Shown here in pieces: positions 1 to 19,589 of a stretch of 64,000 bases of DNA. The stretch covers positions 550,044 through 614,043 of the forward strand of contig JBAZKJ010000002.1 of assembly GCA_041650855.1 (NCBI GenBank). The letters are read 5' to 3'. The notes under the pieces are model-generated. The model saw nothing but the letters and a program-made list of their open reading frames with translations, did not search any database and was not told the origin of the DNA. Each line of letters starts with the position of its first letter. Within the stretch, counting starts at the first letter, position 1. The position numbers and the translations under genes are program-made. This stretch comes from Candidatus Margulisiibacteriota bacterium (GTDB lineage Bacteria > Margulisbacteria > WOR-1 > O2-12-FULL-45-9 > XYB2-FULL-48-7).

Positions 1-1373
1 GAGGAGGGACCTGGCGTGCCGATCCCGACATTGCCGAACAAATGGGAATTGCCGTTGACGTATAAGGCGCCGTCGCTCCCCCCTTCAAACCTGGCGGCAT
101 ATTTCAGGCTGGTCGGGCCGACAACATGCAGCGGCGAGGTTGGACTCGTCGTCCCGACCGCGACTTTTCCCCGATCGATTATCAGGCTGCCGGTGTCTTT
201 CCCCGGCCGCAGATAGATATCCTCGTTGGCGCCCAGATAAACATATGACGTATTGGTCGTTCCTTTAATCTGTAACTTGCTGGTTGGATTGGTGGTTCCA
301 GTCCCGATACCAATATTGCCGACATCATTGATGACCATCCGCTCTTCAAACACGGACCCGTTGGAAGTAGAAAAAGACAACAAGCTGGGAGCATAAGACA
401 CAGGGGCTCCCGTCGAGATCGCCCTGATGCTGGCGCCGGAACGGCTTAAGCCGTTGCCATACCCCCAAAAGAAGATGCCGCCCAGGACATCGCCGTATTG
501 CACGGCGCTCGGGCTGGTCGGGTAACCGCGATAGCGGCGGAACGACAGATACGGGTAAGAAGCGCTGCTGTACTCGTTCAGGTAACCGCCGCCGATCACG
601 TCAAGCGGAACTTCGGGGTTTAAGGTCCCGATCCCGATCTTGCCGGAAAAGAAATTCTTGGGGCCTTTGGCAAATACTCCGAAGCCGCTGACGCTTTCGA
701 ACGAACCGCCGGCGGCGCCGCCGCCGCCGAATACCCCGATCTTATTGGTGCTGCGCCCGTAAACACCGTAGCCGTTATCGCCTACCCCGGCAACGCCGGC
801 GCCAACCTCCACTCCTTCGCCCAGGATCCCGATATTCCCCATGGCCGCCCCGGTTACCCCATAACCACCGCCGCTGGTCGGTCCAACTACTTGCAATCTG
901 GCTGTTGGATTAGTGTTTGAGCCTATTCCGACATTACCGCCGGAATAATATATGTTGCTGCCGGAGGAAGACCATTGTCCACCTCCGCTCCCGCCCACAA
1001 CGCTGTCCGCCAACGCCGCCCGAAAGGCGTAAGGCACGGTGTTAAGCGCCTGGCGCGGGGAGAGGACGGTCTCGCCGACCTTAATTTCCACCCAGTAAGG
1101 CCGGTCAAATACCAGGGCGGTGCCAGCCGTGTCGATTTCAGTGGAAAATATGCCGCTGGTGGGATCAGGAGTGACCGTAACCGGATGATCGGCCGTGTCA
1201 ACGAGATTTCCGCCGGTCAACGCGTCGTAAAAAGTGAAGGTCAATTGCCGCGGGCCTGATAGCCCGGTTAACTTACCGGTAAAACTGATCTTGTTCGGCA
1301 CCACCCCCCACCCAACACCGCTCGCCGCCACCAGAATACCCAAAACCATAATTAACCCTAATATCTTTTTCAT
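1..1373 (-). CDS. Secreted repeat protein, partial (C-terminus lies beyond window start); Gly-rich with tail-fibre-like N(V/I)GIG(T/S)xxP..KLxVxG repeats
   Basis: Continuous minus-strand frame from ATG at 1373 (MKKILGLIMVLGILVAASG, signal-peptide-like) to the window edge. A GGGGGA Shine-Dalgarno sits about 7 nt upstream. It is absent from the ORF track only because it runs off the window. Repeated motifs NVGIGSNTNPTARLQVVG / NIGIGTGTTNPTSKLQIKG / NVGIGTPGPSS and Gly-rich blocks are visible as DNA repeats around 400-1000. This motif is typical of proteins annotated as tail fibre domain-containing or S74-associated surface proteins. Confidence 0.6.
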   Translation of the reverse strand, partial: MKKILGLIMVLGILVAASGVGWGVVPNKISFTGKLTGLSGPRQLTFTFYDALTGGNLVDTADHPVTVTPDPTSGIFSTEIDTAGTALVFDRPYWVEIKVGETVLSPRQALNTVPYAFRAALADSVVGGSGGGQWSSSGSNIYYSGGNVGIGSNTNPTARLQVVGPTSGGGYGVTGAAMGNIGILGEGVEVGAGVAGVGDNGYGVYGRSTNKIGVFGGGGAAGGSFESVSGFGVFAKGPKNFFSGKIGIGTLNPEVPLDVIGGGYLNEYSSASYPYLSFRRYRGYPTSPSAVQYGDVLGGIFFWGYGNGLSRSGASIRAISTGAPVSYAPSLLSFSTSNGSVFEERMVINDVGNIGIGTGTTNPTSKLQIKGTTNTSYVYLGANEDIYLRPGKDTGSLIIDRGKVAVGTTSPTSPLHVVGPTSLKYAARFEGGSDGALYVNGNSHLFGNVGIGTPGPS

Positions 1374-1404
1374 TGAATCTTCCCCCTTTATTGAATAACG
1401 AAGC

Positions 1405-3285
1405 TTAGTAGGAGTCCCAATTCAGCAGATCCTTCTTCAAGACCCACTGCATGTAATCCGTTTGATAGAGCATCTCGACCGTTTCGGCGCGGGAGAGGAG
1501 CTTGTTCGGTTCCAAGTTCTTCCCTTGGAGATAATCGAGGATGTTGACCCGGAAAGCGCCTTCCACCAGGCCGGCCGACCAGTGGGTCGCCGGCAGATCG
1601 GGGAAAATGTTGGAGTAGGTCTCTTCCGAGATCCCGGCGAACCGCGCGATCATCGCCAGTCCTTCCGCCCGGGTAATATTCCCGTTCGGCTTAAAGAGGT
1701 TGCCCGGGTAACCCTTGACGATCCCCTGCTCCGCCGCCTGAGCGATGAATCTGGCCGCCCAATGCTTGACGGGAACGTCCTTAAAGCCGGCATTGGCCGC
1801 CGATTCAAGGCTCGCGCCCCGCGACTTCATTAATAATGTAGCCATTTCCGCCCGGGTAATATTCCCTTCGGGCTTGAAGGTGCCGTTGGGATAACCGGTC
1901 AGTACCCCCTGCATGGCCAACAAGGAGATCTTTTCTCTCGTCCAGTAGCCTTCAGGGACGTCGGGGAACGGCTGGAGCCGGAGGACACGGACCTTTTTCT
2001 GGTCGATCAGCTTGCCGGCCGCGTCTTTCCCTTCCACTACGAGGGCATTTTTGCCGATGGTCAGGTCGATCGGCTGGTTAAAGTTCCCTTTCAGGTCGAA
2101 CTTCGCGAGCCGGCCGCTGACCAGCAGGCTCCGGATGCGCGGGTCCTTGATCGCGCCGGTGACCGCCAACTTCTCGTCGTAGGTCATCAGCTTGTCGGAC
2201 TGGACGGTAAGCCGTTCGCCGGTTTCCTCCACCAATTTGACCGGCGAATAGCTGAGCGAGAAGAACGAATTGGAGACGCCGGGCAGCGTGACAAAAGAGT
2301 GGTAACCGTAATCGAAGCGGAAACCGCCGTATTTGACCCCGACGCCGCCCGCCAGGTTGTTGACCGTTTGGATATTGGCGCCGGTCCCGTCCCCTTCGAT
2401 CGCCTGGTCGATCCCGGCACGGATGGCGATCATCGTGATCGGCGACCATTCCACGCCCAAGTGGTAGAGCGGCAAGGTCTTGGCTACCTGGATCTGGTAA
2501 TCCATGTCGGCCAGCAGCATCACTTCCTGGCCCGTTTTATAAAGCGCATTTTGCTGGCCGAGCAATTTTAGCGCCCCGCCGACCTTCACGTTATGAGGGA
2601 ATCCTTCCTTGTGGCCGCTGGCATAGTTCAGCGTACCGCCCAGAGACCCGGGCAGAACGTTCTGGAAGGCGGCGCCGAGCGTCAAAGCTTTATGCGGCGT
2701 TACCAGCAAACCCAGGTCCAGCTGAGTGCCGGTCGCGTTGCCGTTGCTGATCGAGTCGCCCGACAGTCCGACGTTAAAAAGCTTAAGATTGGCGCCGAGC
2801 GAGACCTTGTCCGCCCAGGCTAACTTGTTGTAAAGGCGCTCCAGGCCGGTCGCGTAAGCGAGCGAATAAACGTAATTGCTGTTGCTGATCTGCGGCTGGG
2901 ACATGTCGATCTCGTAGATCGGATCGTTCGGGTCGGAACCTTCGACCATCTTGGTGGCATAAGCGCCGCCGATCGAATAGCCGCCGAGCCCCAGGGCAAA
3001 ATTACCGTACTGGGTCGGATAAACTCCGGCCAGCGACAGGTAGCTGTAATCCTCCAGGAACTTGCCGGATAAAGTGTCGAGCTGCCAATCCCTGGTCCGG
3101 GCTAACCCGGCCGGATTAATGTAGAGCGCCGAAGCGTCATCCGCCAGGCCGACGAAAGTCCGGCCGAGGCCGATCACCCGGGCGTTGAGGCAGCGATCCG
3201 ACGGGTCGACGGCCTGGAATTGGGCCGCCGCCATCCCCGCGACCAGCGCGCCTACCATTATTATGGCTAATAAGGCCTTTCTCAT
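1405..3285 (-). CDS. Outer-membrane FadL/TodX/PorV-like beta-barrel protein with three C-terminal SLH domains (paralog 1)
   Basis: 626 aa with a signal peptide (…AGMAAAQ). The N-terminal hatch-like motif IGLGRTFVGLADDASALYINPAGLA matches the FadL family G-x-GRA…ADDA…NPA signature. The C-terminal about 190 aa contain three canonical SLH repeats (e.g. FKDVPVKHWAARFIAQAAEQGIVKGYPGNLFKPNGNITRAEGLAMIARF). The start ATG overlaps the upstream gene stop (ATGA). Confidence 0.75.
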   Translation of the reverse strand: MRKALLAIIMVGALVAGMAAAQFQAVDPSDRCLNARVIGLGRTFVGLADDASALYINPAGLARTRDWQLDTLSGKFLEDYSYLSLAGVYPTQYGNFALGLGGYSIGGAYATKMVEGSDPNDPIYEIDMSQPQISNSNYVYSLAYATGLERLYNKLAWADKVSLGANLKLFNVGLSGDSISNGNATGTQLDLGLLVTPHKALTLGAAFQNVLPGSLGGTLNYASGHKEGFPHNVKVGGALKLLGQQNALYKTGQEVMLLADMDYQIQVAKTLPLYHLGVEWSPITMIAIRAGIDQAIEGDGTGANIQTVNNLAGGVGVKYGGFRFDYGYHSFVTLPGVSNSFFSLSYSPVKLVEETGERLTVQSDKLMTYDEKLAVTGAIKDPRIRSLLVSGRLAKFDLKGNFNQPIDLTIGKNALVVEGKDAAGKLIDQKKVRVLRLQPFPDVPEGYWTREKISLLAMQGVLTGYPNGTFKPEGNITRAEMATLLMKSRGASLESAANAGFKDVPVKHWAARFIAQAAEQGIVKGYPGNLFKPNGNITRAEGLAMIARFAGISEETYSNIFPDLPATHWSAGLVEGAFRVNILDYLQGKNLEPNKLLSRAETVEMLYQTDYMQWVLKKDLLNWDSY

Positions 3286-4643
3286 CTGGCGATAACGATC
3301 CTCAGCTTTTTCATTTCGTTGTTTTCCGGAATCCTGATCGCGCCGATCAGCATGCCGAGCTGTTCTTTACCCAGGTCATCGCGGGCCGGCACCTTAATGG
3401 TTATTCGCGCTTGTTCGCCGGCCAGGGGGTGAACGGTCAGCGAGCGGACCTTGCCCGGGCCTGAGCCGGCGGCAAAGACCGTTCCTCCCCCGGTCGGGAC
3501 GGTAAAATCGGTCTTTTGGGAGAAGCTCGGCCCGACCATGACGAACTGGAGGCTGGAAGGCAATTTATTCATGATCGCGTTGACCTTGATCTCGTCTTCC
3601 GGCGTATAAAAGCTGGGCCCGGCCAGGATCAGGCCGATATAATCGGCAAAGCTGTTCTTATCGATCAAGTTAATACTCGTGCTGGCGGTCGTACCGTCCG
3701 GATTGTTGACCGTGATCTGGACCGAACTGCCGGTGGCCGCCTTGCCGATGGTCAGCGTGCCGAGGAAGATGACCCCCCGCTGGGTCGTGCCCGGGATCAG
3801 CGCCTCCGGCGAAACGACGGTTTGGGAGGACTTGACGTTCGGGTCGGAAAAGCTGACGGTGGCGTCCTGGCTGACGCCGGTGACGTAGAGGGCGAAATTG
3901 CTGACCGTGATATCGTTATTCGCGTCCCGCGGGAAACTGGGCATCGGCGGAAAAACGCCGACGACCGCGAAAGCGGGATCGGTGTTGGTGACCGCGAAAT
4001 TATAGGTCGCATAACCGGAATCGGGATTGGTCACGACAAAAGGCGCCACCCCGCCGGAAGCAGCCGAGCTGACGGAAAAACCGACCGTGATCCGGCCGGA
4101 AGTGACCACTTCATAAGAAGTAATGGTGATGCTGGAGCTGAGGTTGGAAACTACCGCCGCCGGATCGAACAAGGCCCCTTCGATCGTGGCAAAAACTGTT
4201 TCCCCGGCGTTCGCGCCGGACGGCGACATGCCGCTGATCGCCGGCGGCGTGACCGCCAGGTTGACGACCATCAGGCCGGCGAACACTTCGTAGCTGGAGC
4301 CGTCATTCTTGATAACGCGGATGTTGCGGGCGACGGCCTCGGCCGTAACGTCGCAGGTCAGGTCAAAAGTTATCTGGCTGTCGGAGACGACGGTCAGCGT
4401 CCCCGGGTCGATCGTCAGGCCCGCGGCCGGGGTGAACTCCACGGTCGTGACATGTTGCAGATCGCGGCCGGTGATCGTGATCCGCTCATGGCTCTCACCG
4501 GTCATAATGGACGATGGGGAGACCGAATCGATGATCTGAAACGGTTTAACCGCAGCAAAAGAGGCAGTGGTCAGTAAGACAACCGCGGAAACCAGCATTA
4601 GAAATAAGCCGGTTTTCTTCATATTCGCAGGCAATAATATCAT
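3282..4643 (-). CDS. Secreted Ig-like/IPT-like repeat surface protein (hypothetical)
   Basis: 453-aa ORF. An alternative start at 4622 (MKKTGLFLMLVSAVVLLTTASFAA) gives a cleaner signal peptide and sits about 5 nt after a predicted TTGACT-16/17-TATTAT promoter. Ser/Thr/Val-rich beta-sandwich-like repeats. The stop overlaps the start of the FadL-SLH gene by 4 nt. Confidence 0.6.
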   Translation of the reverse strand: MILLPANMKKTGLFLMLVSAVVLLTTASFAAVKPFQIIDSVSPSSIMTGESHERITITGRDLQHVTTVEFTPAAGLTIDPGTLTVVSDSQITFDLTCDVTAEAVARNIRVIKNDGSSYEVFAGLMVVNLAVTPPAISGMSPSGANAGETVFATIEGALFDPAAVVSNLSSSITITSYEVVTSGRITVGFSVSSAASGGVAPFVVTNPDSGYATYNFAVTNTDPAFAVVGVFPPMPSFPRDANNDITVSNFALYVTGVSQDATVSFSDPNVKSSQTVVSPEALIPGTTQRGVIFLGTLTIGKAATGSSVQITVNNPDGTTASTSINLIDKNSFADYIGLILAGPSFYTPEDEIKVNAIMNKLPSSLQFVMVGPSFSQKTDFTVPTGGGTVFAAGSGPGKVRSLTVHPLAGEQARITIKVPARDDLGKEQLGMLIGAIRIPENNEMKKLRIVIAR

Positions 4644-4689
4644 TGCACACTATAATAGTCAATGTTACAATTGCCGTCGGAGGGAAAAA
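4623..4689. promoter_or_regulatory. Back-to-back divergent promoter region
   Basis: Plus strand: -10 TATAAT at 4651-4656, then GGAGGG SD before ATG 4690. Minus strand: -35 TTGACT (4656-4661) and -10 TATTAT (4634-4639), ending about 10 nt before the ATG at 4622. The two promoters interdigitate. Confidence 0.35.
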
Positions 4690-5895
4690 ATGAAATATTT
4701 TGTTCCGTTAGCTATCCTCGTCTTGCTGGTCGGCTTAAGCGGCTGCACTTCGAGCGCCCCGCTCGAGCGCGCGACCACGACCACCACGCCCGCTACCACC
4801 TCAACAACGGCCGCAACGACCACCACGGCCGCCGGTACGACCACGACGACCGGCACCGGACCAACGACTACCGGCACGCCTACCACTTCCACAACAACGA
4901 CCACTACCGGCCCGGTCGCGACGTACACGGTCAACGGAACGGCCAATATCATGGGGTACGGGATCGCCGGCGTGCTGGTCACGATCGAAGGCGTTGGCAC
5001 CACGACGACCGATCCAGCCGGGAACTTCTCCTTCGGCTCGGTCCCGGCCGGGTTCTGGAGCATGACATTCTGGCAGGCCGGCTGGACATTCGATCCAGCC
5101 TCTGTTTCTTTCGTTCTGACCGGCAATTTGACGAAAAATAGCTCGGGTGAACCGACCGACTGGACGGCGCAAAAAGTCGGCACCGCTCACCTGACCGCCG
5201 CGACTTCCATCGATGCCGGCATGTTTATTGTCGGAAAGAACAGCTCGGTCATTTTACAATCAACCGATGGCGGCACGAATTGGGTAACTGCCTTTACCAA
5301 TAATCCGACCTCCGAACCGTTGATCGCCTGCTTTAGCATGCCGGGAAATACCCTGGGCATAATCAATCAAGATGGTTCAATCTTCCAAAGCACCGATCCG
5401 ACGGTTACCGCCTGGGCTTATTATTTCCGGGTCATCAATACCACCGAAGCCTTGGTCGATTTTAACGCGGCCAGCAACTTAACTTGGGAAGTCGTAACCG
5501 CCGGCGGCAAGATCCTCTGGAGCGGGGACCAAGGCGCAACTTACCTTGATTCCACGGAAGCCGGCAGCTTTGTCCACGGCATTCAGTTGCAGGACCCTTA
5601 TACGATGGTTGCGGCCGGGAACAACGGTTATGTCAAATATTACGACGGCTCGAGCTGGATCAACTTGGGCCCGGGCGGCTCGGAAAACTTTCATAAAGCG
5701 CTATTTGATACAAATGCCGCCTTGCTGGTCTCCAGTCAAGGCGTTATTTACAAAAGCACGGATAACGGCGTGAATTGGGCCCGCAGTTTAACCGGCTTTC
5801 CGGCGACGTTTGAAGGGGTATTTATCCCGGGGGCGCCGTCATTTACCGGCTCGATCGTCTGCGGCAGCAACGGCTGGGTCCTGAAACACAAATAA
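4690..5895 (+). CDS. Lipoprotein with Thr/Pro-rich linker, carboxypeptidase-regulatory-like domain and BNR/Asp-box beta-propeller-like C-terminal region
   Basis: Start MKYFVPLAILVLLVGLSGC (lipobox LSGC) is preceded by GGAGGG SD. The ORF-track start at 4567 lies upstream of the SD and is unlikely. About 50-aa Thr-rich tract (TTTTTPATTSTTAATTTT…). Asp-box-like motifs STDGGTNW and STDNGVNW. Confidence 0.6.
   Translation: MKYFVPLAILVLLVGLSGCTSSAPLERATTTTTPATTSTTAATTTTAAGTTTTTGTGPTTTGTPTTSTTTTTTGPVATYTVNGTANIMGYGIAGVLVTIEGVGTTTTDPAGNFSFGSVPAGFWSMTFWQAGWTFDPASVSFVLTGNLTKNSSGEPTDWTAQKVGTAHLTAATSIDAGMFIVGKNSSVILQSTDGGTNWVTAFTNNPTSEPLIACFSMPGNTLGIINQDGSIFQSTDPTVTAWAYYFRVINTTEALVDFNAASNLTWEVVTAGGKILWSGDQGATYLDSTEAGSFVHGIQLQDPYTMVAAGNNGYVKYYDGSSWINLGPGGSENFHKALFDTNAALLVSSQGVIYKSTDNGVNWARSLTGFPATFEGVFIPGAPSFTGSIVCGSNGWVLKHK
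4768..4923 (+). repeat. Low-complexity Thr/Pro/Gly-rich linker-coding tract (ACC/ACG codon repeats)
   Basis: DNA is runs of accacg/accacc. Protein is TTTTTPATTSTTAATTTTAAGTTTTTGTGPTTTGTPTTSTTTTTTG. Confidence 0.6.
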
Positions 5896-7020: not shown

Positions 7021-7024
7021 ATTA

Positions 7025-8526: not shown

Positions 8527-9301
8527 GGTGGATGTTAGCTATGATATCAGAAGCGGTAAGCGATTGCTCCCCGCAGAGCCTGGCGGCCTGGTCGCCGGCT
8601 AAACCGTGCCAATAAACGCCGGTCACGGCTGCGTCCCAGGCGGAAAAGCCCTGCCCGGCCAGACTGGCGATCATCCCGGTCAGGACATCGCCGGCGCCGG
8701 CGGTCGCCATCCCCGGATTACCGTTTTTATTGATCGCGAACTTCCCGGCCGGCTCGGCGATAACGGTCCGATTACCCTTGAGGACAACGACCGCGCCGAA
8801 CTTCACCGCCGCCTGCAGGGCGATGCCTTGGCGGTTCGCTTGAACGGCCTCGACCGTCAGACCAAGCAATTTGGCCATCTCGCCCGGATGCGGCGTAATA
8901 ACAGCCTGGCTGGCGAACGGCTTGAGCAAATCCGGGCTCTTGGTTAACGCTGGCAAAGCGGTCGCGTCAATTATTAATTTAGAATTTAAAGTCAATAATT
9001 GATGAATTAATTTATTAATATCTTGCTGTGGATCGATGCCGGGGCCAATCGCGACCGAATCCGGCTGGACCTTAGCCAACTCATTAAGGGAAACAACAAT
9101 GACTTCGGGCGTAATGGTGTTGGCAAAGTTGACAAGGTCGTCGGGTACGGCCCAGTAAACAAGCCCGGAACCGGTCCGCAAAGCGGCGCGCGCCGCTAGA
9201 ACGCCGGCGCCGAGCATCCCGCGCGAACCGGCAACGACCAGGACCTTGCCGTAATCGCCTTTATGGCTATCCGGTTTTCGTTTGGGGAGACGCTTTACCA
9301 T
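8504..9301 (-). CDS. nnrD: ADP-dependent NAD(P)H-hydrate dehydratase (YjeF C-terminal domain only)
   Basis: HKGDYGKVLVVAGSRGMLGAGVLAARAALRTGSGLV N-terminal signature of the YjeF_C carbohydrate-kinase fold. 265 aa, stand-alone. Confidence 0.75.
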   Translation of the reverse strand: MVKRLPKRKPDSHKGDYGKVLVVAGSRGMLGAGVLAARAALRTGSGLVYWAVPDDLVNFANTITPEVIVVSLNELAKVQPDSVAIGPGIDPQQDINKLIHQLLTLNSKLIIDATALPALTKSPDLLKPFASQAVITPHPGEMAKLLGLTVEAVQANRQGIALQAAVKFGAVVVLKGNRTVIAEPAGKFAINKNGNPGMATAGAGDVLTGMIASLAGQGFSAWDAAVTGVYWHGLAGDQAARLCGEQSLTASDIIANIHHGLQKSR

Positions 9302-11139
9302 GTGTTAAGGGTGCGGATCTGGGCGGCCATTTGCGAGGTCCTGGCCAGGACCTCGGCCACCTCGGCGCGGGTCATCGCGCGGTTCGGTTCAAAATTCTTA
9401 CCGCTGAGGAAGGTCAGCCAGCCCGCCTCTTTGGCCGCGGCGATCTCGTTATAAGCCCAGGAGCGGCCGTTAATGTCGCTGAACGGCAGGACGGAAAGCC
9501 GCGGTTTGGTCAAACGGTCGAACCGGGCCAGGATCGAGAGCCCTTCGGCCCTGGTCACTTTACTGTTCGGCCGGAAAGTGCTGTCCGGATAGCCTTTGAC
9601 CAGGTTCTCTTTGACCGCTTCGATAATGTGTTGCGCTGCCCAGTGGGTCGCCGGTACGTCCATGAACCCTTGCTGCCAGCCCGGCTTGATCTCGATCCCC
9701 TTGATCCGCATCAGCAGGGCGCAAAGCTCAGCCCGGGTAACGCCCGCTTCGGGCAAAAAAGTGCCGTTCGGGTATCCGGCAATGATGCCGAGCGTCGCCA
9801 GGTTCTCGATCGGCGCCTGCGCCCAGTAATCGGGTGTCACGTCGGTAAAACTCTTGAGGCTTAACAACCGGACCTGGTCGGAACCGAGCGGTGCCCATTT
9901 ATCGCTATACGCCGTGATCTCGATCGTGTTTTTGCCGGGTTTAAGGGGAAGCGCAACGTCGACCTGCTGCTGTTTGAGCGGCGCTTCGAAGCCGCTGATG
10001 GTCAGATGGGCGACCTCGCTCTTTAAGACTTTCCCCTGGAAATCGACCCGCTGGCCGCGGATGACCGTTTTATCGGCCGGCTGCAGGGCGAACAGCGCCC
10101 CTTTGGGCGTCCGGTCCTTCTTGCCGACGCCGTAAGAGATGGAAAAATAATGGGTATCATTGTCGCCCGTTTGGCTGTATTGGTGGAACGCGTAATCGAA
10201 ACGGAAATCGTTGAAGTAAAGGCCCAGGCCGAAGGTCAGGTTATTGGAGGCCTCCAGCGCGCCGGAGGTGCCGGTCCCCACCGTTTCCTGGTCGATGCCG
10301 GCGCGCAGGTCGAGCAGGTCGATCGGCGACCACTCGATCCCGGTGTGATAAAGCGCCGGGATATTCGGCCTGGTCGGCGTGAAATCTCCGTCAAAATTTA
10401 AGCGGACCTCGTGTTTGCCGCGGACCCAGATCCCCTGTTCGCCGAGCAGGTTGACGTTGGCCCCCAGTTTGACGACATGAGGCAAACTCTCTTCCAGTCC
10501 GCTCTTCCAGGTGATCTTGCCCCCCATACCGGCCGGCAGGATGTTCTGCAGGACGAGGCCGAACTTGGTAAATTGCAGCGGCCGGTAGTTGATCCCCAGG
10601 TCAAGATCGTTGCCGGCGGCGCTCCCGTTCGTGATCCCCTGCCCGGTCATGTCGACGCCGAAGAACTTGAGCGTGCCGCCGACCGGCAGTTCGTAAAAGG
10701 TCGCGCCCCAGGAAAGGAGGAACACCCGGTTGTTGTATTCGTAATTCGAACCGGCGCCGCCGGTCGGGATGATCCGGATGCCGTCCACCGCCTCGATCGT
10801 CGCGGCGACCGCGGTAAAGCCGACATTACTGCCGACGTAACCGAAGCCGAACGTGCCGTATTTGGTCGGCACGGCTGTCCCCAGGTTAAGATAATTATAT
10901 TCATTAAGGAATTTGCCCGACATGCTGGTCGCCTGCGGCCGGTTGATCTGGGCAAGCGCGGCCGGATTGGTAAAGATCCCTTCCAGGTCGTCGGCCATGC
11001 CGATGTAGCTTTTGCCCATGCCGAGGATCCGGGCGCCGACCCCGATCCGGGTCGGGTCGTTGGCGACTTTGGTCAAGCCGAACGCCAGCGAAGCGACCGT
11101 GACCAGCAGGAGTAAAGAAACCGGCAGTTTTTTAATCAT
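9295..11139 (-). CDS. Outer-membrane FadL/TodX/PorV-like beta-barrel protein with three C-terminal SLH domains (paralog 2)
   Basis: 614 aa with a signal peptide. Hatch motif ILGMGKSYIGMADDLEGIFTNPAALA. Three C-terminal SLH repeats (FTDVTPDYWAQAPI…, FMDVPATHWAAQHI…TRAEGLSILARF, FSDINGRSWAYNEI…TRAEVAEVLART). The start ATG overlaps the stop of the giant upstream gene by 8 nt. Confidence 0.75.
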   Translation of the reverse strand: MIKKLPVSLLLLVTVASLAFGLTKVANDPTRIGVGARILGMGKSYIGMADDLEGIFTNPAALAQINRPQATSMSGKFLNEYNYLNLGTAVPTKYGTFGFGYVGSNVGFTAVAATIEAVDGIRIIPTGGAGSNYEYNNRVFLLSWGATFYELPVGGTLKFFGVDMTGQGITNGSAAGNDLDLGINYRPLQFTKFGLVLQNILPAGMGGKITWKSGLEESLPHVVKLGANVNLLGEQGIWVRGKHEVRLNFDGDFTPTRPNIPALYHTGIEWSPIDLLDLRAGIDQETVGTGTSGALEASNNLTFGLGLYFNDFRFDYAFHQYSQTGDNDTHYFSISYGVGKKDRTPKGALFALQPADKTVIRGQRVDFQGKVLKSEVAHLTISGFEAPLKQQQVDVALPLKPGKNTIEITAYSDKWAPLGSDQVRLLSLKSFTDVTPDYWAQAPIENLATLGIIAGYPNGTFLPEAGVTRAELCALLMRIKGIEIKPGWQQGFMDVPATHWAAQHIIEAVKENLVKGYPDSTFRPNSKVTRAEGLSILARFDRLTKPRLSVLPFSDINGRSWAYNEIAAAKEAGWLTFLSGKNFEPNRAMTRAEVAEVLARTSQMAAQIRTLNTW

Positions 11140-14100
11140 ATATAACGATATGCCCCTTACCGATCACCTTGCCGCCGGCCATGATCCGGAAAACGTAGAT
11201 CCCGTTCCCCAGCGCCAGGCCGGAAGTATCGGAAAGACCGTTGAACGCGATGGCGTTATAGCCGGCCATCCCGCCGTTGGTCCCGGTCGCGTACCGCCGG
11301 TTCCAGACCGGTTCGCCGGCCGGGCCAAAGATGACGAGATTGACGTCGGCGTCCTGGTTCAGGTTATACGCGACCGTCGTGGTCACGTCGCGGGCGATCG
11401 AGTAAGTTGTCGGGTAGACCGAAACCGCGCCGACCAGGGCCGTAGAACTGCCCGCGGCGACCACTTTCAGGCCGGTTACGAGCTTGTTCAGCGAACCGCC
11501 CTCTATGTCGTTCGCCTCCACGCTGATGCTGTGGGCCATGACCGTTTCGTCCTCCAGTTCCCCCGCCGGCTGGAAGATCAGAGTGTAATCCCGGTCGGAG
11601 TTGGCAACGATATAAGGATTGACCAGCGCGCCGTCGAGGTGCATCTTCAGCGAACTCGCTTCGAGCGAAACGTCGTCGGTAATATTGGCTTTGAACGTCG
11701 GCCGTTTCATAACGTAATCGCCGTTCCGGAGATCGGCGTTATTGGCCTTGAGCGAAGCGGCCAGCTTGCCGGCGACGGTGGTGAAGGTCGAACTGAACGC
11801 CGTCAAGCTGTTGCCGATCAGGTCGACGGCGCCCGGGCCGATCGTCACGGTATAATTGCCGCTCCGCGCCAGGATCGCCGCCGGCGTAAAGGTCATCGTC
11901 TGGCCGTCGCTGCTCCAGCTGAAAGCGCCCGCCGCCGTGGCGACCGCCGTCAGGGTAAAAGCGTTCTGGGCCGCCTCCCGGCTCATCTCTTTGGAGAAGG
12001 TGACGATCACTTCGGCGGTAGTCGGGACATTGGTCGCACTACCGGCCGGGACGATCGCCGTCACCGTCGGCCGTACAACGTCGATCGTAAAATCAGCGGC
12101 GCTGATCGCCGTCGCTTCCCGGGTGACCTGGTCGACCGCGCTGACCCTGATCCGGCCGCTGGTCGTGGCCAGGGACGGCACGGTCCACTCGTAGGTCCCG
12201 GTATTGGTCAGGCCGGATGCTACCGTCGACCAGCTGCCCCCGCCGTCACTGGAGAATTGGATAGTGATCGGCGCGGCTGCCAGGCCGACCGTGTCGGACG
12301 CGCTCCACCTGATCGGATAGGTCGCCCCCACCCGCTCGCCGCCGTTGGGCGCGATCACCTCAGCGGTCGGTGGACGGGCGTCAAGCAGGAAGGCGCCGCT
12401 TTCGCCGGTGCCAAGCTGGCCGTAACCATCGAGACCGGTAACTTTAATCCTCATGTTCGCCGATTCAAAGGTCGGAACGGTATTGATATAATACGGTTCA
12501 TTCGTCGGTACGCTGGTATCGATCAGGATGTAATCCGTCCCGCCGTTAAGCGAGTAATAGATCGAGGCGCTGTTCGCCTGGACGCCGTTCGGCCCTCCCA
12601 TCGCAAAGACGATGGGGGTGGCGGGAATGTTTTCGGTCTTGTATTTTCCACCGGCAACGGGATTGGTTACCGTAACGGTTGGCCCCTCCTGGGTCGGCGT
12701 AGTCGCACTAGCCACGCCGGACTCGGAGCTGGCGTCGATCTTCCAGGCCCGGACAAAACGGTTATAAGTACTGCTGCCGGTCATCCCCGCTTCGACCGTC
12801 GAGGCGACGCCGTGCGGCGCTTCGGCCACCACCGCGCCGGTCTCGGCGCTGACCACCTGGTAAACGGATTCCCAGGTCGTGTTGCCGGTCCAGCTCCAGC
12901 GGACCGTGTTGGCCGATTCGGCGGTGCCGACCAGGCCGGTCGGCGCTGCGGGCGTGACCGTTCCCCAACCGATAAAATCGTCGTAAACTATGTAATCGGA
13001 GACTTTTTGCCCCTGCCCGACCGGATTAAAATAACGGCCGCTCGCCCGGTTATCTTCCGGATCGTACGGCCCGGTCGGTTCGCCCCAATCGGTCCGGTTA
13101 AAATAATGCATTGTGCCGCTGTTGTTATTATAGATCGCGTATTTAGTCTCCCGGTCGCCATAGATCGACGCGTTCGCTTCAATGGTGCCGTCCGTCATAA
13201 CGACAGGGCCGGCACCGGTGATCAGCAGGCCGTAACCGCCGTTGTTAACTATCGTATTATTGGCGCCCGAAATGGGACCGCTGGTCGTATGCTGGATCGC
13301 GTCGCCGGTGCAATTGGCGATCTCATTGCCGCTGATGTAGGTCGTATAAAAAGGCTGAGAGACCATGATGCCGTTGCTGTTGCCGAGCGCGCCGCCGGCC
13401 GCGGTCACCCCGAACCGGTTATTATTGATCTGCGTATTATCGATGTTGTAACCGACGACCAGGCCGAAACCGGTATTGCCGGAGATCAGGTTGTTCAAGA
13501 CCTGATTGCCGCTATTGGACGCGCCACCCGCGTTATAGCAGGACATCAAGATGCCGCCCACGGAATTCGGCAGCGCGCCTGATCCGTTCTTGTTCAGGCC
13601 GATATAATTTCCCTGGATCGTGTTAGAGTTCAGCGCCGTGGTATAGCTGTAGGAATCGTAGCCCAGCACGACGCCGTAGCCGCCGTTGCCGGAGATGATG
13701 TTCCGCTCGCCTTCGGCCGTGCCGCCGATCGTATTGAAATTGGCGGTCGTCGGAAAGATCATCACACCGCCGTAGTTACCGACACCATAGGAATTATTGG
13801 GGATCATCCCGTAACCGGAAGCGTTGGTCCCGATGTGGTTCCCTTTGACCGAAAGATAGTCACCGTGCAGCTCCACGCCGGAATTAAAATTGCCGGAGAT
13901 CACGTTCCCCTCGCCCGTCGCGCCGCCGCCGATATCGTTGTACATTCCGCCCAGATAAACACCGTACATGTTCGGCAAAGCGCTGTTGGAGGTCTTGTCC
14001 ACGCCGACATAATTGCCCAGGATCCGGTTATACGCGGTGCCGGACGCGGGATAACTCGGGCTGCTAACGTTTATGCCGTAATTCTGGCCGGCGATCACGT

Positions 14101-16003
14101 TGCGCGCTTCCAGCGTGGCGCCGCCGATCAGTTGGTAGCTCGAATCGGCAAGATAGACACCGTAGTCCGTATAATATGAACCGGAATACCCGGGCAGGAT
14201 GCTGGTCCCGTCGGCGTCGGTCCCGATCAGGTTCCCTTGGACCGTGTTGCCGATAAGCGAATAATTGAGATAAACATTGATATTGTTACAGCTGATCAAG
14301 TTCCCGGCGCCCTCCTGCGTTCCGCCGATCATACAGCCGTAGGAATTATAGGCGTATATGCCGATCATATTTTGCAGGCGGCCGGTCCCGGCCTGGTTCG
14401 TGCCGATCCGGTTCCCCCGGATCTCCGCGCTCGACGTGTTCATGACCTGGATCGCGTAATAGGCATTGCCGGAGATCACGTTCCCCTCGCCGCTGCCGCT
14501 CCCGCCGATCCGGTTGTAAGGCGCTTCCAGCTTGATGCCGTTATAATTACTAAGATAATCCGTGCCGGTCTTGTCTGTGCCGATATAATTACCGATCAGC
14601 CTGTTGTTCTGTGACGTGCCGGAAGCGCATATGCCGAAATAATTTGAGCCGGAGCCGTTGCCGGAGATGATGTTCCGCTCGCCTTCGGTCGTGCCGCCGA
14701 TCGTGTTGTAACTGGAATTGTTGACGTAAACCCCATGATAATTGTTGGGGATGGGGCTGTCTCCCAGACAATTGGTGCCGATATAGTTCCCCTTGACCTC
14801 GTTGCTGGTTCCGCCGTATAAATAAAGGCCGTACCGGGTGTTGCCGGAGATCAGGTTACCCTCGCCGGCATTTCCGCCGCCGATCTGGTTGTAAGGCCCT
14901 TCCACCCTGATCCCGTTATAGTTGGCCAGAGCGTATGTCCCGTTCTTGGTGGTGCCGATGTAATTGCCAAAGACGCGGTTGTGTTGAGCGGTTCCCATGA
15001 TCCAGAGGCCGTAATAATTCGAGGTGCCGTTACCCGATATGACGTTCCGCTCCCCTTCGGCGCTCCCGCCGATCAGGTTCAGGTTCGCATTAGTAATATA
15101 TACCCCGGCGTAGTAATTGGCGATAGCCGTGATCCCGTCGGCGTCGGTCCCGATGTAGTTCCCCTTGACCTCGTTGCTGAGCGCGGTCGTGCCCATGATC
15201 TGGACGCCGACGTTATTGCCGGAGATCAGGTTCCGTTCGGCTTCCGTCGCCCCGCCGATAATGTTGCTGAAGCAATTCACGCCGTCGCCGTAGAGGTTGA
15301 CAGCCGCACCGACAGCGCTTGCTACGGCGCGGCTGCCGGTCCGGTTAACGCCGAGATAATTCCCCTTGATCAGGTTGCCGATACTCCCGGTACATTGAAT
15401 CCCGCAGCTGTTATTGCCGGAGATCAGGTTCCTGGCTTCCGTGGCGTAGCCGCCGACCAGGTTGTAGTTGCCGTGGAGCCAGATGCCGGCGATCGCGGTC
15501 GTGGTGTCAACCTCGCCGGTCGCGTCGGTGCCGAAATAACAGCCGCGGATCGTGTTGTAATCGGTGCCGCAGTCGATCGTGTAGCCGCCTTTGTAGTAAC
15601 TAAAGACCATCCCTTCGATCGTATTACCGTTAGAATAGAGCGCGATCCCGGGGCTGCCTTCGCTGACCTCCGAGGAAATAACGATCTCCGGCCCGTAAGG
15701 ATTGGTATTGCCCTGGTTAATGGTCTGGGTGGAGCCGTTAATATAGATGTTAGGGTTGCTGACCACCAACGAGGTCATTAATTTAATGATCCAGGCGTGA
15801 CCGCCGGGGATCGCTTCGTAACTAAGGTCGGTGGCCGGGATATTGAACTCGATGATCCGGCCGGAAGTGGAAGAGGTTATCCCCTCGCGCAGGGACCCGG
15901 CCCCGGAATCGTTACAATTGGTTACGGTATAAGTATCGGCCGGCGAACTTGAGGTAAAAAACAGGACAAGCGCCAACGCACCCAGGAGCAATCTCGCTCT
16001 CAT
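11132..16003 (-). CDS. Giant secreted right-handed parallel beta-helix repeat surface protein with Ig-like domains and a FlgD-Ig / T9SS-CTD-like C-terminal domain
   Basis: 1623 aa with a signal peptide (MRARLLLGALALVLFFTSSSPA). About 15 tandem ~63-aa repeats of GNYIGT…IGG..EGERN(I/L)ISGN. Ig-like middle region. The last about 90 aa (…VWNRRYATGTNGGMAGYNAIAFNGLSDTSGLALGNGIYVFRIMAGGKVIGKGHIVIYD) match the FlgD-Ig / por-secretion-tail-like pattern. Confidence 0.8.
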   Translation of the reverse strand: MRARLLLGALALVLFFTSSSPADTYTVTNCNDSGAGSLREGITSSTSGRIIEFNIPATDLSYEAIPGGHAWIIKLMTSLVVSNPNIYINGSTQTINQGNTNPYGPEIVISSEVSEGSPGIALYSNGNTIEGMVFSYYKGGYTIDCGTDYNTIRGCYFGTDATGEVDTTTAIAGIWLHGNYNLVGGYATEARNLISGNNSCGIQCTGSIGNLIKGNYLGVNRTGSRAVASAVGAAVNLYGDGVNCFSNIIGGATEAERNLISGNNVGVQIMGTTALSNEVKGNYIGTDADGITAIANYYAGVYITNANLNLIGGSAEGERNVISGNGTSNYYGLWIMGTAQHNRVFGNYIGTTKNGTYALANYNGIRVEGPYNQIGGGNAGEGNLISGNTRYGLYLYGGTSNEVKGNYIGTNCLGDSPIPNNYHGVYVNNSSYNTIGGTTEGERNIISGNGSGSNYFGICASGTSQNNRLIGNYIGTDKTGTDYLSNYNGIKLEAPYNRIGGSGSGEGNVISGNAYYAIQVMNTSSAEIRGNRIGTNQAGTGRLQNMIGIYAYNSYGCMIGGTQEGAGNLISCNNINVYLNYSLIGNTVQGNLIGTDADGTSILPGYSGSYYTDYGVYLADSSYQLIGGATLEARNVIAGQNYGINVSSPSYPASGTAYNRILGNYVGVDKTSNSALPNMYGVYLGGMYNDIGGGATGEGNVISGNFNSGVELHGDYLSVKGNHIGTNASGYGMIPNNSYGVGNYGGVMIFPTTANFNTIGGTAEGERNIISGNGGYGVVLGYDSYSYTTALNSNTIQGNYIGLNKNGSGALPNSVGGILMSCYNAGGASNSGNQVLNNLISGNTGFGLVVGYNIDNTQINNNRFGVTAAGGALGNSNGIMVSQPFYTTYISGNEIANCTGDAIQHTTSGPISGANNTIVNNGGYGLLITGAGPVVMTDGTIEANASIYGDRETKYAIYNNNSGTMHYFNRTDWGEPTGPYDPEDNRASGRYFNPVGQGQKVSDYIVYDDFIGWGTVTPAAPTGLVGTAESANTVRWSWTGNTTWESVYQVVSAETGAVVAEAPHGVASTVEAGMTGSSTYNRFVRAWKIDASSESGVASATTPTQEGPTVTVTNPVAGGKYKTENIPATPIVFAMGGPNGVQANSASIYYSLNGGTDYILIDTSVPTNEPYYINTVPTFESANMRIKVTGLDGYGQLGTGESGAFLLDARPPTAEVIAPNGGERVGATYPIRWSASDTVGLAAAPITIQFSSDGGGSWSTVASGLTNTGTYEWTVPSLATTSGRIRVSAVDQVTREATAISAADFTIDVVRPTVTAIVPAGSATNVPTTAEVIVTFSKEMSREAAQNAFTLTAVATAAGAFSWSSDGQTMTFTPAAILARSGNYTVTIGPGAVDLIGNSLTAFSSTFTTVAGKLAASLKANNADLRNGDYVMKRPTFKANITDDVSLEASSLKMHLDGALVNPYIVANSDRDYTLIFQPAGELEDETVMAHSISVEANDIEGGSLNKLVTGLKVVAAGSSTALVGAVSVYPTTYSIARDVTTTVAYNLNQDADVNLVIFGPAGEPVWNRRYATGTNGGMAGYNAIAFNGLSDTSGLALGNGIYVFRIMAGGKVIGKGHIVIYD
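13200..15700 (-). repeat. Tandem intragenic DNA repeats (about 190 bp unit, about 380 bp super-unit) encoding beta-helix coils
   Basis: Near-identical blocks recur, e.g. gccggagatcacgttcccctcgcc…ccgccgatc at about 13895, 14465 and 14840, and gccggagatgatgttccgctcgccttcgg at about 13690, 14660 and 15030. Confidence 0.6.
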
Positions 16004-16044: not shown

Positions 16045-16419
16045 TTAATTTTCCAGTACGACGAAAGCGATCGCCTGGTCGCGGCTGTGGGAGAGGGAAA
16101 CGTGGATCTTCTTGTTGACCCGCCCCTTGACGGCGATCAGCGGTTTGCCCCGTTTATCGTTGACGACCTCGACATCAAGCCAGCCGACCCCTTTGTTCGA
16201 GCGGCCGAACCCCCTGATCCCCGTGCCGAGCGCCTTGGAATAGGCCTCTTTGGCCGCGAAGCGGACCGCCAGTTCGGGATAACGGTAGCTTTTCAGCAGC
16301 TGGCAGTAGAGGATCTCGCTCGGGGTGTAGACTTTTTGCAGGAAACTTTTGCCGTGCTTCTGCACGGCTTTCTTGATCCGCCCGATCTCGATGATATCGA
16401 CGCCGACGCCGGTGATCAT
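16045..16419 (-). CDS. acpS: Holo-[acyl-carrier-protein] synthase
   Basis: MITGVGVDIIEIGRIKKAV… the canonical AcpS N-terminus, about 125 aa. The longer ORF-track version (288 aa) is a GC-driven extension. Confidence 0.75.
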   Translation of the reverse strand: MITGVGVDIIEIGRIKKAVQKHGKSFLQKVYTPSEILYCQLLKSYRYPELAVRFAAKEAYSKALGTGIRGFGRSNKGVGWLDVEVVNDKRGKPLIAVKGRVNKKIHVSLSHSRDQAIAFVVLEN

Positions 16420-19063: not shown

Positions 19064-19064
19064 C

Positions 19065-19361: not shown

Positions 19362-19363
19362 TA

Positions 19364-19588: not shown

Positions 19589-19589
19589 C

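What the first reader, a model, noticed from the sequence alone, without database searches (positions are those of the whole stretch)
1..4643. Second copy of the same module: Ig-like secreted protein -> FadL::SLH barrel -> tail-fibre-repeat surface protein
An independent paralogous barrel (1405..3285) is again translationally coupled (ATGA overlap) to an upstream secreted beta-sandwich protein. It is followed 31 nt later by a Gly-rich protein with phage-tail-fibre-like GIGTxxP…KLxVxG repeats. Two copies of the pairing within 16 kb argue for a functional pairing rather than chance adjacency. Each barrel may be specific for its neighbouring cargo.
Basis: partly seen in the sequence, partly recalled or inferred. 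Interest (0 to 1): 0.65.

Follow-up and report, generated by a model that had tools for sequence, protein, structure and literature searches.

The report
Wall-tethered PorV-like barrels beside surface-protein genes
In an uncultured Margulisbacteria genome, outer-membrane barrels resembling the cargo carrier PorV of the Bacteroidota type IX secretion system are fused to cell-wall-binding domains and sit next to genes for secreted surface proteins, which suggests a cell-wall-anchored surface-display module in a phylum where no such system has been described.

Summary
On the minus strand, a 446/453-aa secreted IPT/Ig-repeat protein (4643..3282) overlaps by ATGA a 626-aa outer-membrane protein (3285..1405). 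A Gly-rich fibre gene (1373..1) follows 31 nt later. The window is chromosomal DNA of a Candidatus Margulisiibacteriota MAG.

The barrel is more specific than "FadL". It matches the PorV/PorQ family end to end (E 3e-20, below NCBI's cutoff). Its best structural matches are the PorV chains of the T9SS translocon. It continues into an Ig domain and three SLH repeats.

Across 20 homologous barrels, 13 have an adjacent gene ending in a T9SS type-A-like C-terminal domain (CTD) (odds ratio 23, p = 2e-9). The window's second pair (1623-aa protein plus 614-aa barrel) is one of these.

For the pair in the finding, the upstream protein shows no demonstrable CTD (hhalign 15%, generic Ig-like model). Canonical CTD proteins of the same operon lie 5–6 genes downstream, outside the window.

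The fibre protein (766 aa in full) resembles Bdellovibrio MAT fibres. It ends in a Peptidase_G2-like chaperone domain, not S74 or a CTD.

Best reading: these are wall-tethered PorV-like docking platforms for neighbouring surface proteins. Whether a T9SS translocon exists in this phylum could not be tested.

The parts
4634..4662 (-). Sigma-70-like promoter candidate (TTGACT-17-TATTAT, TG-extended) in the divergent intergenic region, upstream of the ATG at 4622
   Evidence: 10/12 match; consensus match only. Sequence read.
3282..4643 (-). Secreted IPT/TIG (Ig-like) repeat protein. 453 aa as the longest ORF; the probable start is at 4622 (446 aa). It has a signal peptide, 2-3 IPT / 'choice-of-anchor Z' repeats and a divergent C-terminal beta-sandwich (last ~120 aa, window 3285..3659).
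   Evidence: CoaZ_rpt_PGGG, 7.5e-11; P0121, 446 aa; orthologues; collinear with BNR+CoaZ+CTD proteins; C-terminal domain: CTD relationship inconclusive.
1405..3285 (-). 626-aa outer-membrane protein: signal peptide, N-terminal hatch with an NPAG motif, and a 14-strand PorV/PorQ-like barrel (aa 22-346, window 2248..3222); then an Ig-like Glucodextran_B domain (aa ~359-436, window 1978..2211); then three SLH repeats with TRAE-type motifs (aa 440-626, window 1408..1968).
1..1373 (-). 5' 457 codons of a 766-aa Gly-rich fibre protein (P0125). It has a signal peptide, a conserved N-terminal region and repeated GNVGIGTxxPxxxLxVxG units. The C-terminal ~170 aa (outside the window) is a Peptidase_G2-like intramolecular-chaperone-type domain.
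   Evidence: (Bd2439 MAT fibre, 1.8e-7).
4690..5895 (+). Divergently transcribed 401-aa lipoprotein (LSGC lipobox) with a Thr-rich linker and a BNR/Ycf48-like beta-propeller. In relatives the same propeller is fused to the CoaZ repeats and CTD in the barrel's neighbour.
11132..16003 (-). Second module cargo: 1623-aa secreted beta-helix / Big_5 protein ending in a T9SS type-A-like CTD (aa 1524-1623, window 11135..11434).
9295..11139 (-). Second module barrel: 614-aa PorV-like barrel + 3xSLH paralogue. It overlaps its upstream gene by 8 nt and sits in conserved core synteny next to nnrD-mlaEFD.

Best explanation
The 626-aa and 614-aa proteins are 14-stranded outer-membrane barrels of the PorV/PorQ branch of the FadL superfamily. 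Their periplasmic C-terminus continues into an Ig-like spacer and a three-repeat SLH module, which binds the (probably pyruvylated) cell-wall polymer.

Each barrel therefore staples the outer membrane to the wall. With its extracellular loops it also acts as a fixed docking or sorting partner for secreted surface proteins encoded beside it.

In most members of the family the partner carries a T9SS type-A-like C-terminal domain. The window's 1623-aa beta-helix protein is one such partner.

In the module of the finding the operon is [446-aa IPT-repeat protein]-[barrel]-[MAT-like trimeric fibre]. Beyond the window it continues with four proteins of two unknown families, then two CTD proteins (390 and 1180 aa). 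The barrel most likely anchors one or more of these products. The 446-aa protein's C-terminal beta-sandwich is probably a degenerate descendant of the CTD.

Shown: domain architecture, fold, gene coupling, conservation of the neighbourhood, and enrichment of CTD genes.
Inferred: periplasmic location of the SLH module, physical barrel-cargo binding, which gene product is the partner, and how the cargo crosses the outer membrane.
For: - Sequence: the PorV_fam HMM matches end to end (aa 34-346 to 12-324/326; E 3.4e-20 and 3.3e-18 for the two barrels).
- Structure: the AF2 model has pLDDT 89 and 14 strands. Its two best PDB matches are chain F of 8GL6 and 6H3I, the T9SS 'PorV complex' (E 2.8e-12 and 8e-10, TM 0.65), ahead of FadL and TodX.
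- SLH: E 1e-30, and it matches B. anthracis Sap and SpaA SLH bound to pyruvylated SCWP (TM 0.75-0.86).
- CTD identity: the C-termini of 10 barrel neighbours all hit TIGR04183 (best 4e-10). Seven hit PF18962 and nine hit FlgD_ig.
- Enrichment: 13 of 20 barrels have an adjacent CTD gene. 15 of 39 adjacent genes carry the CTD against 5 of 186 other genes (p = 2.4e-9).
- L088 has three barrel paralogues interleaved with six CTD proteins.
- Operon extension: it contains 390-aa and 1180-aa CTD proteins (HMM 1e-31 and 1e-20). The 390-aa protein is the orthologue of the gene immediately upstream of the barrel in L003.
- The triad is conserved in L001, L081, L082, L084 and L087.
- Extracellular loops diverge more than strands between the two paralogues (24% versus 46% identity).
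- Precedent: PorV loops bind type A CTDs (PMC10994853). PorP/SprF-like barrels encoded next to their type B CTD cargo anchor it on the surface (PMC9143113, PMC12618676).
Against: - The 446/453-aa upstream protein does not match the CTD profile (E > 0.09). hhalign gives 15% probability. Its C-terminal model is low-confidence (pLDDT 62) and hits only generic Ig folds.
- Both barrels score below NCBI's curated PorV_fam cutoff (72.9 and 66.3 against 90).
- The window's own CTD scores 17.3 bits against a cutoff of 23.
- L004 has a barrel with no secreted neighbour.
- No translocon (SprA/Sov) or sortase (PorU) was seen in any fetched locus, and whole genomes could not be searched.
- The CTD HMM was trained on some of the counted neighbours, and the loci are phylogenetically related, so the p-value overstates independence.
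- No binding was modelled or measured.
Confidence: 0.55

Rival explanations
1. The barrels are simply this phylum's OmpM-type outer-membrane-to-wall tethers. They may double as FadL-type channels for hydrophobic compounds. The neighbouring secreted proteins are co-located envelope genes with no physical relation to the barrel.
For: - SLH plus barrel in one polypeptide fits the operational OmpM definition used by Witwinowski et al. (bioRxiv 10.1101/2021.05.31.446380), who reported OmpM in Margulis- and Saganbacteria.
- The 614-type barrel sits in conserved core synteny beside mlaEFD.
- L004 has a barrel without a secreted neighbour.
- The FadL-like hatch motif NPAG is invariant in 42 homologues, and FadL and TodX are strong structural hits.
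- Relatives of the barrel carry other periplasmic tails (Lys-rich, TM helix), as expected of a tether.
Against: - CTD genes are enriched 23-fold next to the barrels, often with overlapping stop and start codons.
- Best fold and HMM matches are PorV/PorQ rather than FadL. The Pfam FadL family (Toluene_X) does not hit at E <= 0.1.
- Several paralogues per genome are interleaved with CTD proteins.
Confidence: 0.2
2. Margulisbacteria have a complete T9SS-like secretion system. In that case these barrels are true PorV-type carriers that collect CTD cargo at a SprA-like translocon.
For: PorV-like fold and type-A-like CTDs occur together. In Bacteroidota these two parts work only with the translocon (PMC10994853).
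Against: - A carrier stapled to the wall by three SLH repeats could not shuttle laterally as PorV does.
- No SprA-, PorU-, PorZ- or GldKLMN-like gene appears in the 64-kb window or in about 300 kb of fetched loci.
- The literature describes the T9SS as confined to Bacteroidota/FCB (PMC10994853, PMC7463736). No paper links it to Margulisbacteria.
Confidence: 0.1
3. In this particular module the barrel's partner is the downstream MAT-like fibre. The barrel would be the outer-membrane socket that holds the fibre's conserved N-terminal region, and the upstream IPT protein would be an accessory.
For: - The fibre gene directly follows the barrel in the window and in L001, L082, L084/L085 and L087.
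- The fibre's C-terminus is an auto-processing chaperone-type domain (G2-like or S74), so attachment must be through the conserved N-terminus.
- L001's fibre hits Bdello_MAT_N.
Against: - More distant barrels of the same clade (L002, L003, L088, L089) have no fibre gene but do have CTD proteins.
- There is no precedent for PorV-like barrels binding N-terminal domains.
- Nothing was modelled.
Confidence: 0.15

Closest known systems
PorV (LptO) and PorQ of the Bacteroidota type IX secretion system
   Same: 14-strand FadL-fold outer-membrane barrel. End-to-end HMM similarity (E 3e-20). Best structural match. Genomic association with proteins that end in a type-A-like CTD.
   Different: - Scores below the curated family cutoff.
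- Carries a C-terminal Ig + 3xSLH wall anchor, so it cannot be a mobile shuttle.
- Present as several paralogues, each next to its own cargo gene, whereas one PorV serves all type A cargo.
- The host phylum is outside FCB.
- No translocon, sortase or motor genes were seen.
PorP/SprF-like carrier-anchor barrels with cognate type B CTD cargo (sprB-sprF; PG1035-PorP)
   Same: Cargo and barrel are encoded side by side. Many paralogous pairs occur per genome. The barrel keeps the cargo on the cell surface (PMC9143113, PMC12618676). PorP is additionally linked to the wall through PorE's OmpA_C-like domain, which is functionally analogous to the SLH fusion here.
   Different: The barrel here belongs to the PorV/PorQ family, not PorP_SprF. 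The CTD is type-A-like, not type B. The wall link is covalently fused (SLH) instead of being supplied by a separate protein.
OmpM / Slp / cyanobacterial SLH-porins (outer-membrane tethers of diderm Terrabacteria)
   Same: One polypeptide with an SLH wall-binding module and an outer-membrane beta-barrel, in a Terrabacteria lineage sister to Cyanobacteria.
   Different: The order is reversed (barrel at the N-terminus, SLH at the C-terminus). There are three SLH repeats plus an Ig spacer instead of one SLH plus a coiled coil. The barrel is PorV/FadL-like, not a general porin.
Bdellovibrio MAT (mosaic adhesive trimer) fibres and phage tail fibres with C-terminal intramolecular chaperones
   Same: The Gly-rich protein has the repeated GNVGIGT..P..L.V units. 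It matches Bd2439 (8OL4, E 1.8e-7). Like the MAT family, it occurs in S74 and non-S74 versions (PMC10769870).
   Different: It is chromosomal, Sec-secreted and encoded directly after a PorV-like barrel. This copy's C-terminal domain is Peptidase_G2-like only by transitive homology.

Membership tests
PorV/PorQ family (NCBIfam NF033709) | Significant end-to-end match to the family HMM | tested here: met
   aa 34-346 aligned to 12-324 of 326, E 3.4e-20 (626 aa); E 3.3e-18 (614 aa).
PorV/PorQ family (NCBIfam NF033709) | Score above NCBI's curated cutoff (90 bits) | tested here: not met
   72.9 and 66.3 bits. The equivalog models PorQ (30 against 220) and PorV2 (25-48 against 325) are far below cutoff.
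PorV/PorQ family (NCBIfam NF033709) | 14-strand FadL-type barrel closest in structure to PorV | tested here: met
   14 strands. Top hits are 8gl6_F and 6h3i_F (E 2.8e-12 and 8e-10, TMt 0.65). That chain F is PorV is inferred from its size and from the entry being the 'PorV complex'.
PorV/PorQ family (NCBIfam NF033709) | Works with a T9SS translocon and attachment complex (SprA/Sov, PorU, PorZ, GldK-N) encoded in the same genome | not testable with these tools
   Only the window and ~20-kb loci could be read, and none contains such genes.
PorV/PorQ family (NCBIfam NF033709) | Binds proteins carrying a T9SS CTD | tested here: inconclusive
   There is only genomic association: 13 of 20 barrels have an adjacent CTD gene, p = 2.4e-9. 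No binding test was done.
FadL / TodX outer-membrane transporters | 14-strand barrel with an N-terminal hatch carrying an NPA motif | tested here: met
   FadL and TodX hits at E 1e-8 to 1e-6. N57 and P58 are invariant, A59 and G60 nearly invariant.
FadL / TodX outer-membrane transporters | Match to the Pfam FadL family model (Toluene_X) | tested here: not met
   no such hit at E <= 0.1.
OmpM-type outer-membrane tether | SLH domain and outer-membrane beta-barrel in one protein (operational definition of Witwinowski et al.) | tested here: met
OmpM-type outer-membrane tether | N-terminal single SLH, then a coiled-coil stalk, then a C-terminal porin barrel | tested here: not met
   the barrel is N-terminal, followed by an Ig domain and three C-terminal SLH repeats.
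SLH domain (PF00395) | HMM above cutoff, three-repeat fold, TRAE-type motifs | tested here: met
   (105.5 bits against 20.8). (3pyw TMt 0.86; SpaA-SLH/pyruvylated ligand complexes). (ITRAEMA, ITRAEGL, LSRAETV).
T9SS type A sorting domain (TIGR04183 / PF18962) | C-terminal ~80-100 aa matching the model: 1623-aa protein of the second module | tested here: inconclusive
   17.3 bits, E 0.0035, below the cutoff of 23. However, all 10 aligned homologous C-termini hit the model (best 4e-10), and seven hit PF18962.
T9SS type A sorting domain (TIGR04183 / PF18962) | C-terminal ~80-100 aa matching the model: 446/453-aa protein of this module | tested here: not met
   - No Pfam or NCBIfam hit.
- Own CTD HMM gives E 0.09.
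- hhalign 15% probability.
- The model matches only generic Ig folds.
- The orthologue L082_463 aligns collinearly into the CTD only weakly.
MAT / tail-fibre proteins with a C-terminal intramolecular chaperone | Fibre repeats with similarity to solved MAT fibres | tested here: met
   (8ol4 Bd2439, E 1.8e-7). (5 repeats, 0 in shuffles). (L001 orthologue hits Bdello_MAT_N).
MAT / tail-fibre proteins with a C-terminal intramolecular chaperone | Peptidase_S74 chaperone domain at the C-terminus | tested here: not met
   no hit in P0125. S74 is present in the relatives L082_866 and P0128.
MAT / tail-fibre proteins with a C-terminal intramolecular chaperone | Peptidase_G2 IMC autoproteolytic domain at the C-terminus | tested here: inconclusive
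   P0125 itself has no hit. Its last ~170 aa are homologous (1e-25 to 1e-29) to the C-termini of P0175, P0139 and P0164, which hit PF11962, as does P0157.

The most novel reading that the evidence does not exclude
Margulisbacteria and Saganbacteria, sisters of Cyanobacteria and outside the FCB superphylum, may use a translocon-independent version of the CTD/PorV recognition pair. In this reading, paralogous PorV-like barrels are welded to the cell wall by SLH repeats, and each captures and displays the CTD-tagged (or fibre) protein encoded next to it. CTD-PorV recognition would then be an older, more widespread surface-anchoring principle than the type IX secretion machine. The main outer-membrane tether of this lineage would double as its surface-display scaffold.
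Probability: 0.3. Interest if true: 0.8.

Novelty: new variant of a known kind. Interest (0 to 1): 0.62.

Why it matters
PorV-type carriers and CTD sorting signals are treated as hallmarks of the Bacteroidota/FCB type IX secretion system. Finding both parts side by side in a Terrabacteria lineage, with the barrel fused to the SLH wall anchor typical of OmpM tethers, links two fields: outer-membrane tethering in diderm Terrabacteria and T9SS cargo sorting.

It yields a concrete, testable pair (barrel loops against neighbour CTD). It also raises a question: how do these cargoes cross the outer membrane if no SprA-like translocon exists? Practically, 'S-layer homology domain-containing protein' annotations in these phyla hide a PorV-like family of at least 1,900 sequence clusters.

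Tried and rejected
- Exact look-up of P0001 (617-aa version of the barrel) found no contig. P0125 was used instead.
- The genome-contig scan with the full-length alignment chose SLH peptides as patterns. Only 13 of 80 loci were true barrel homologues; L012 and L014-L080 are irrelevant SLH proteins.
The fallback two-sequence alignment gave only pLDDT 62 and no informative fold match.
- Sequence search of the barrel against the PDB finds only SLH structures, not PorV. The relationship is visible only to the NCBIfam HMM and by fold.
- Cluster look-up of non-SLH relatives gave no organism names.
- Literature searches for PorV+SLH, type IX secretion+Margulisbacteria and T9SS+Margulis found nothing relevant.
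- A prophage origin for the fibre gene was considered and rejected. The gene has a signal peptide, lies in a conserved chromosomal operon, and has no phage genes nearby.
- Terminator scans gave only chance-level hits inside coding regions.
Full report
**1. What is in the sequence**

The window is about 59% G+C. It carries housekeeping operons: the dcw cluster (mraY-murD-ftsW-murG-murC-murB), tkt, pheA, argS, mlaEFD, GH57/glycogen genes and an LptC/LptA-like gene.

The three proteins of the finding have 100%-identical entries from a Candidatus Margulisiibacteriota MAG: locus tags WC529_07505 and WC529_07495, on a 708-kb contig. This is chromosomal DNA of an uncultured diderm lineage sister to Cyanobacteria.

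On the minus strand:
- ORF 4643..3282 (453 aa; probably 446 aa from the ATG at 4622) ends in ...AGATGA. The TGA stop overlaps the ATG of ORF 3285..1405 (626 aa).
- After 31 nt, a third gene starts at 1373 and leaves the window.
- A TTGACT-17-TATTAT promoter-like site lies at 4662..4634. No convincing terminator lies between the genes.
- All three products begin with signal peptides.

**2. The barrel**

Pfam sees only three SLH repeats (E 1e-30) and a Glucodextran_B Ig-like domain. NCBIfam aligns residues 34-346 end to end with the PorV/PorQ family model. The E-value is 3.4e-20, but 72.9 bits is below the curated cutoff of 90. The paralogue at 11139..9295 behaves the same way.

An AlphaFold2 model built on 42 homologues has mean pLDDT 89. 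It shows an N-terminal hatch, 14 transmembrane strands, an Ig sandwich and a three-repeat SLH bundle.

Foldseek against the PDB ranks first the ~350-residue chain F of 8GL6 and 6H3I, the F. johnsoniae T9SS 'PorV complex' (E 2.8e-12 and 8e-10). FadL and TodX follow (E ~1e-8). The SLH part matches B. anthracis Sap and P. alvei SpaA SLH domains, including complexes with pyruvylated SCWP.

With 14 strands both termini are periplasmic (standard outer-membrane-protein topology; inference). The Ig and SLH tail would therefore reach the wall.

The closest branch is the T9SS carrier/anchor family PorV/PorQ.

**3. The family**

The word-indexed search returns more than 238 full-length homologues. The named ones are almost all Margulisbacteria, Saganbacteria or WOR-1.

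An exhaustive phmmer search with the barrel alone gives 1,967 representative clusters (162 at E <= 1e-30). Of the best 150:
- 96 carry the SLH tail.
- The others include fragments, bare barrels, and barrels followed by Lys-rich tails or a C-terminal hydrophobic helix.

The periplasmic tail therefore looks modular.

The two window paralogues are 35% identical overall. By region they are 46% identical in strands, 42% in SLH, 24% in predicted extracellular loops and 19% in the Ig linker.

**4. The neighbours**

In 12 GTDB loci with full-length barrels I noticed that adjacent genes end in a shared motif...G-I-Y-x-x-x-I...G-K-x-x-G-K-G-K-I-x-V.

I aligned ten such C-termini, including that of the window's 1623-aa beta-helix/Big_5 protein. 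All ten hit TIGR04183, the T9SS type A sorting domain (best 4e-10). Seven hit PF18962 and nine hit FlgD_ig. The window's own copy is sub-threshold on its own (17.3 bits against 23).

An HMM of this alignment finds exactly one CTD in the 64-kb window, and it is the gene overlapping the 614-aa barrel. It also finds an untrained copy upstream of the L006 barrel (E 9e-20).

I added three further contexts:
- L088: three barrel paralogues interleaved with six CTD proteins.
- L089: a CTD protein immediately upstream of the barrel.
- L087.

Across all these, 13 of 20 barrels have an adjacent CTD gene. 15 of 39 adjacent genes carry the CTD, against 5 of 186 other genes (odds ratio 23, one-sided Fisher p = 2.4e-9).

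Two caveats apply. Part of the training set is among the counted genes, and the loci are related, so the p-value is optimistic. The five 'non-adjacent' CTD genes all lie in the same clusters.

**5. The module of the finding**

*Conservation.* The triad is conserved in closer relatives:

| Locus | Barrel identity | Arrangement |
|---|---|---|
| L081 | 82% | whole 10-kb synteny kept; contig ends 57 nt after the barrel gene, so any fibre gene is not visible |
| L082/L083 | 63% | 463-aa TIG protein, barrel, 866-aa fibre with Peptidase_S74 |
| L084/L085 | 63% | 447 aa, ATGA overlap, barrel, 790-aa fibre |
| L087 | 51% | 694-aa BNR protein, barrel, 855-aa fibre |
| L001 | 46% | partial upstream ORF, barrel, 852-aa fibre |

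*The upstream protein.* It has two 'choice-of-anchor Z'/IPT repeats and very few homologues. Its C-terminal ~120 aa:
- do not match the CTD HMM (E 0.09);
- give hhalign probability 15% (E 0.0017) against the CTD alignment, though in end-to-end register;
- fold, at low confidence (pLDDT 62, two sequences), into an eight-strand sandwich with only generic Ig matches.

In more distant 626-type loci the barrel's neighbours are BNR-propeller + CoaZ-repeat + CTD proteins (L089_840, CTD E 1e-10; L003_799/813 and L002_679, a divergent CTD with hhalign 90%). A profile of their last 300 residues aligns collinearly to the end of the orthologue L082_463. For the window protein it covers only the IPT part.

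I conclude that the C-terminal domain is positionally equivalent to a CTD and may be a degenerate one. This is not shown.

In the window's lineage the BNR propeller is a separate, divergently transcribed lipoprotein (4690..5895).

*Beyond the window.* L086 is the same genome. There the operon continues after the fibre gene with proteins of 377, 356, 434 and 382 aa, belonging to two unknown families that also recur in L003, L084, L087 and L089. Then come a 390-aa and an 1180-aa protein carrying the canonical CTD (HMM 1e-31 and 1e-20).

The 390-aa protein is the full-length orthologue of the gene immediately upstream of the barrel in L003, and of L002_379.

The 'module' is therefore the head of a longer surface-protein operon. 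Its canonical CTD members lie outside the window.

**6. The fibre**

The full protein (P0125) is 766 aa and has five GNVGIGTxxPxxxLxVxG units. Residues 268-375 match the Bdellovibrio MAT fibre Bd2439 (8OL4, E 1.8e-7). The L001 orthologue hits Bdello_MAT_N.

It has neither a CTD nor S74. Its last ~170 residues are shared with at least 28 homologues, several of which hit Peptidase_G2, the IMC autoproteolytic domain.

MAT fibres likewise come in S74 and non-S74 forms (PMC10769870).

**7. Mechanism**

In Bacteroidota, PorV's extracellular loops bind type A CTDs inside the SprA pore and carry the cargo away (PMC10994853). Type B cargo is often encoded next to a cognate PorP/SprF-like barrel, which then anchors it on the surface (PMC9143113, PMC12618676).

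The arrangement here combines a PorV-type barrel and a type-A-like CTD with the 'cognate neighbour' genetics of the type B system. It adds a covalent wall anchor.

A barrel held by three SLH repeats cannot shuttle. I therefore favour a fixed docking or display role combined with outer-membrane tethering (confidence 0.55).

The rivals are:
- a pure tether or FadL-type channel (0.2);
- a complete T9SS (0.1);
- in this module specifically, a socket for the fibre's N-terminus (0.15).

How the cargo crosses the outer membrane is unknown. No translocon-like gene was seen in any sequence I could read.

**8. Comparison and novelty**

No paper in the library links PorV with SLH, or T9SS with Margulisbacteria. 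Witwinowski et al. scored OmpM as present in Margulis- and Saganbacteria using 'any SLH plus barrel protein' as the definition. Those calls may include this family, which differs from OmpM in domain order and in barrel type.

I rate it a new variant of a known kind: known parts (PorV-like barrel, type-A-like CTD, SLH, MAT-like fibre) in a new fusion, a new genetic arrangement and an unexpected phylum.

Interest is 0.62. The architecture and the association are solid. The binding, the specificity and the status of this module's upstream protein are not.

Noticed in passing
L086:12339-17069 (same genome, just beyond the window's left edge); also L003:104-6800, L084:14497-16903, L087:14624-21380, L089:14750-21186: Two unknown secreted protein families alternate in the same operon as the barrel. 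One (~360-410 aa) ends in ...G-x-G-Y-Q-I-x-V-x(5-10)-G. The other (~380-550 aa) ends in ...G-Y-W-Y...W.... Neither has any Pfam or NCBIfam hit, and both are conserved across Margulis- and Saganbacteria.
   Followed up: partly
L002:314-9833, L088:1-4633, L089:1-11923: In three genomes the barrel/CTD cluster starts directly after the flagellar export genes fliPQR-flhB-flhA. In L088 the barrel overlaps flhA by 8 nt; in L002 it follows after 6 nt (flhA ends 7865, barrel starts 7872). A link to flagellar or envelope biogenesis, or plain synteny, was not resolved.
   Followed up: no
proteins P0223, P0227, P0237, P0239, P0298, P0299 (TM-like tail); P0276, P0332, P0213, P0222 (Lys-rich tail): Close relatives of the barrel domain lack SLH and instead end in a hydrophobic helix or a strongly basic Lys-rich tail. 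This suggests interchangeable periplasmic tethering modules. The organisms are unknown.
   Followed up: partly
window 9295-11139 with 5899-9301 and 16045-25912: The 614-type barrel lies in core synteny that is conserved in L004, L005 and L081: dcw genes, tkt, pheA, argS, ilvE-like, acpS, [CTD protein + barrel], nnrD, mlaE-mlaF-mlaD. This is what one would expect of a core envelope gene.
   Followed up: partly
window 4690-5895 (+): A lipoprotein with a Thr-rich linker and a BNR/Ycf48-like propeller gives a weak hit to BamI_Bacteroidota (E 7e-4, far below cutoff). The same propeller is fused to the CoaZ repeats and CTD in barrel neighbours of other genomes.
   Followed up: partly
window 33088-34314 (+): A 408-aa protein has weak LptC- and LptA/LptD_N-like segments. 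Together with mlaEFD this supports an LPS-containing outer membrane in this organism.
   Followed up: no
window 41176-53215 (-): A run of glycogen/alpha-glucan genes: starch synthase, a fused NTP-transferase/phosphoglucomutase (820 aa), and three GH57 enzymes including a branching enzyme and a 4-alpha-glucanotransferase.
   Followed up: no
window 62001-64000: G+C drops to 0.495 from a window average of about 0.59-0.60, with a positive AT skew. This was not examined.
   Followed up: no
L011:3455-5383: A 642-aa protein ending in ...GLTYRF, a typical outer-membrane beta-barrel terminus, sits directly upstream of the CTD protein + barrel pair in the curated complete WOR-1 genome. It has no family hit.
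   Followed up: partly
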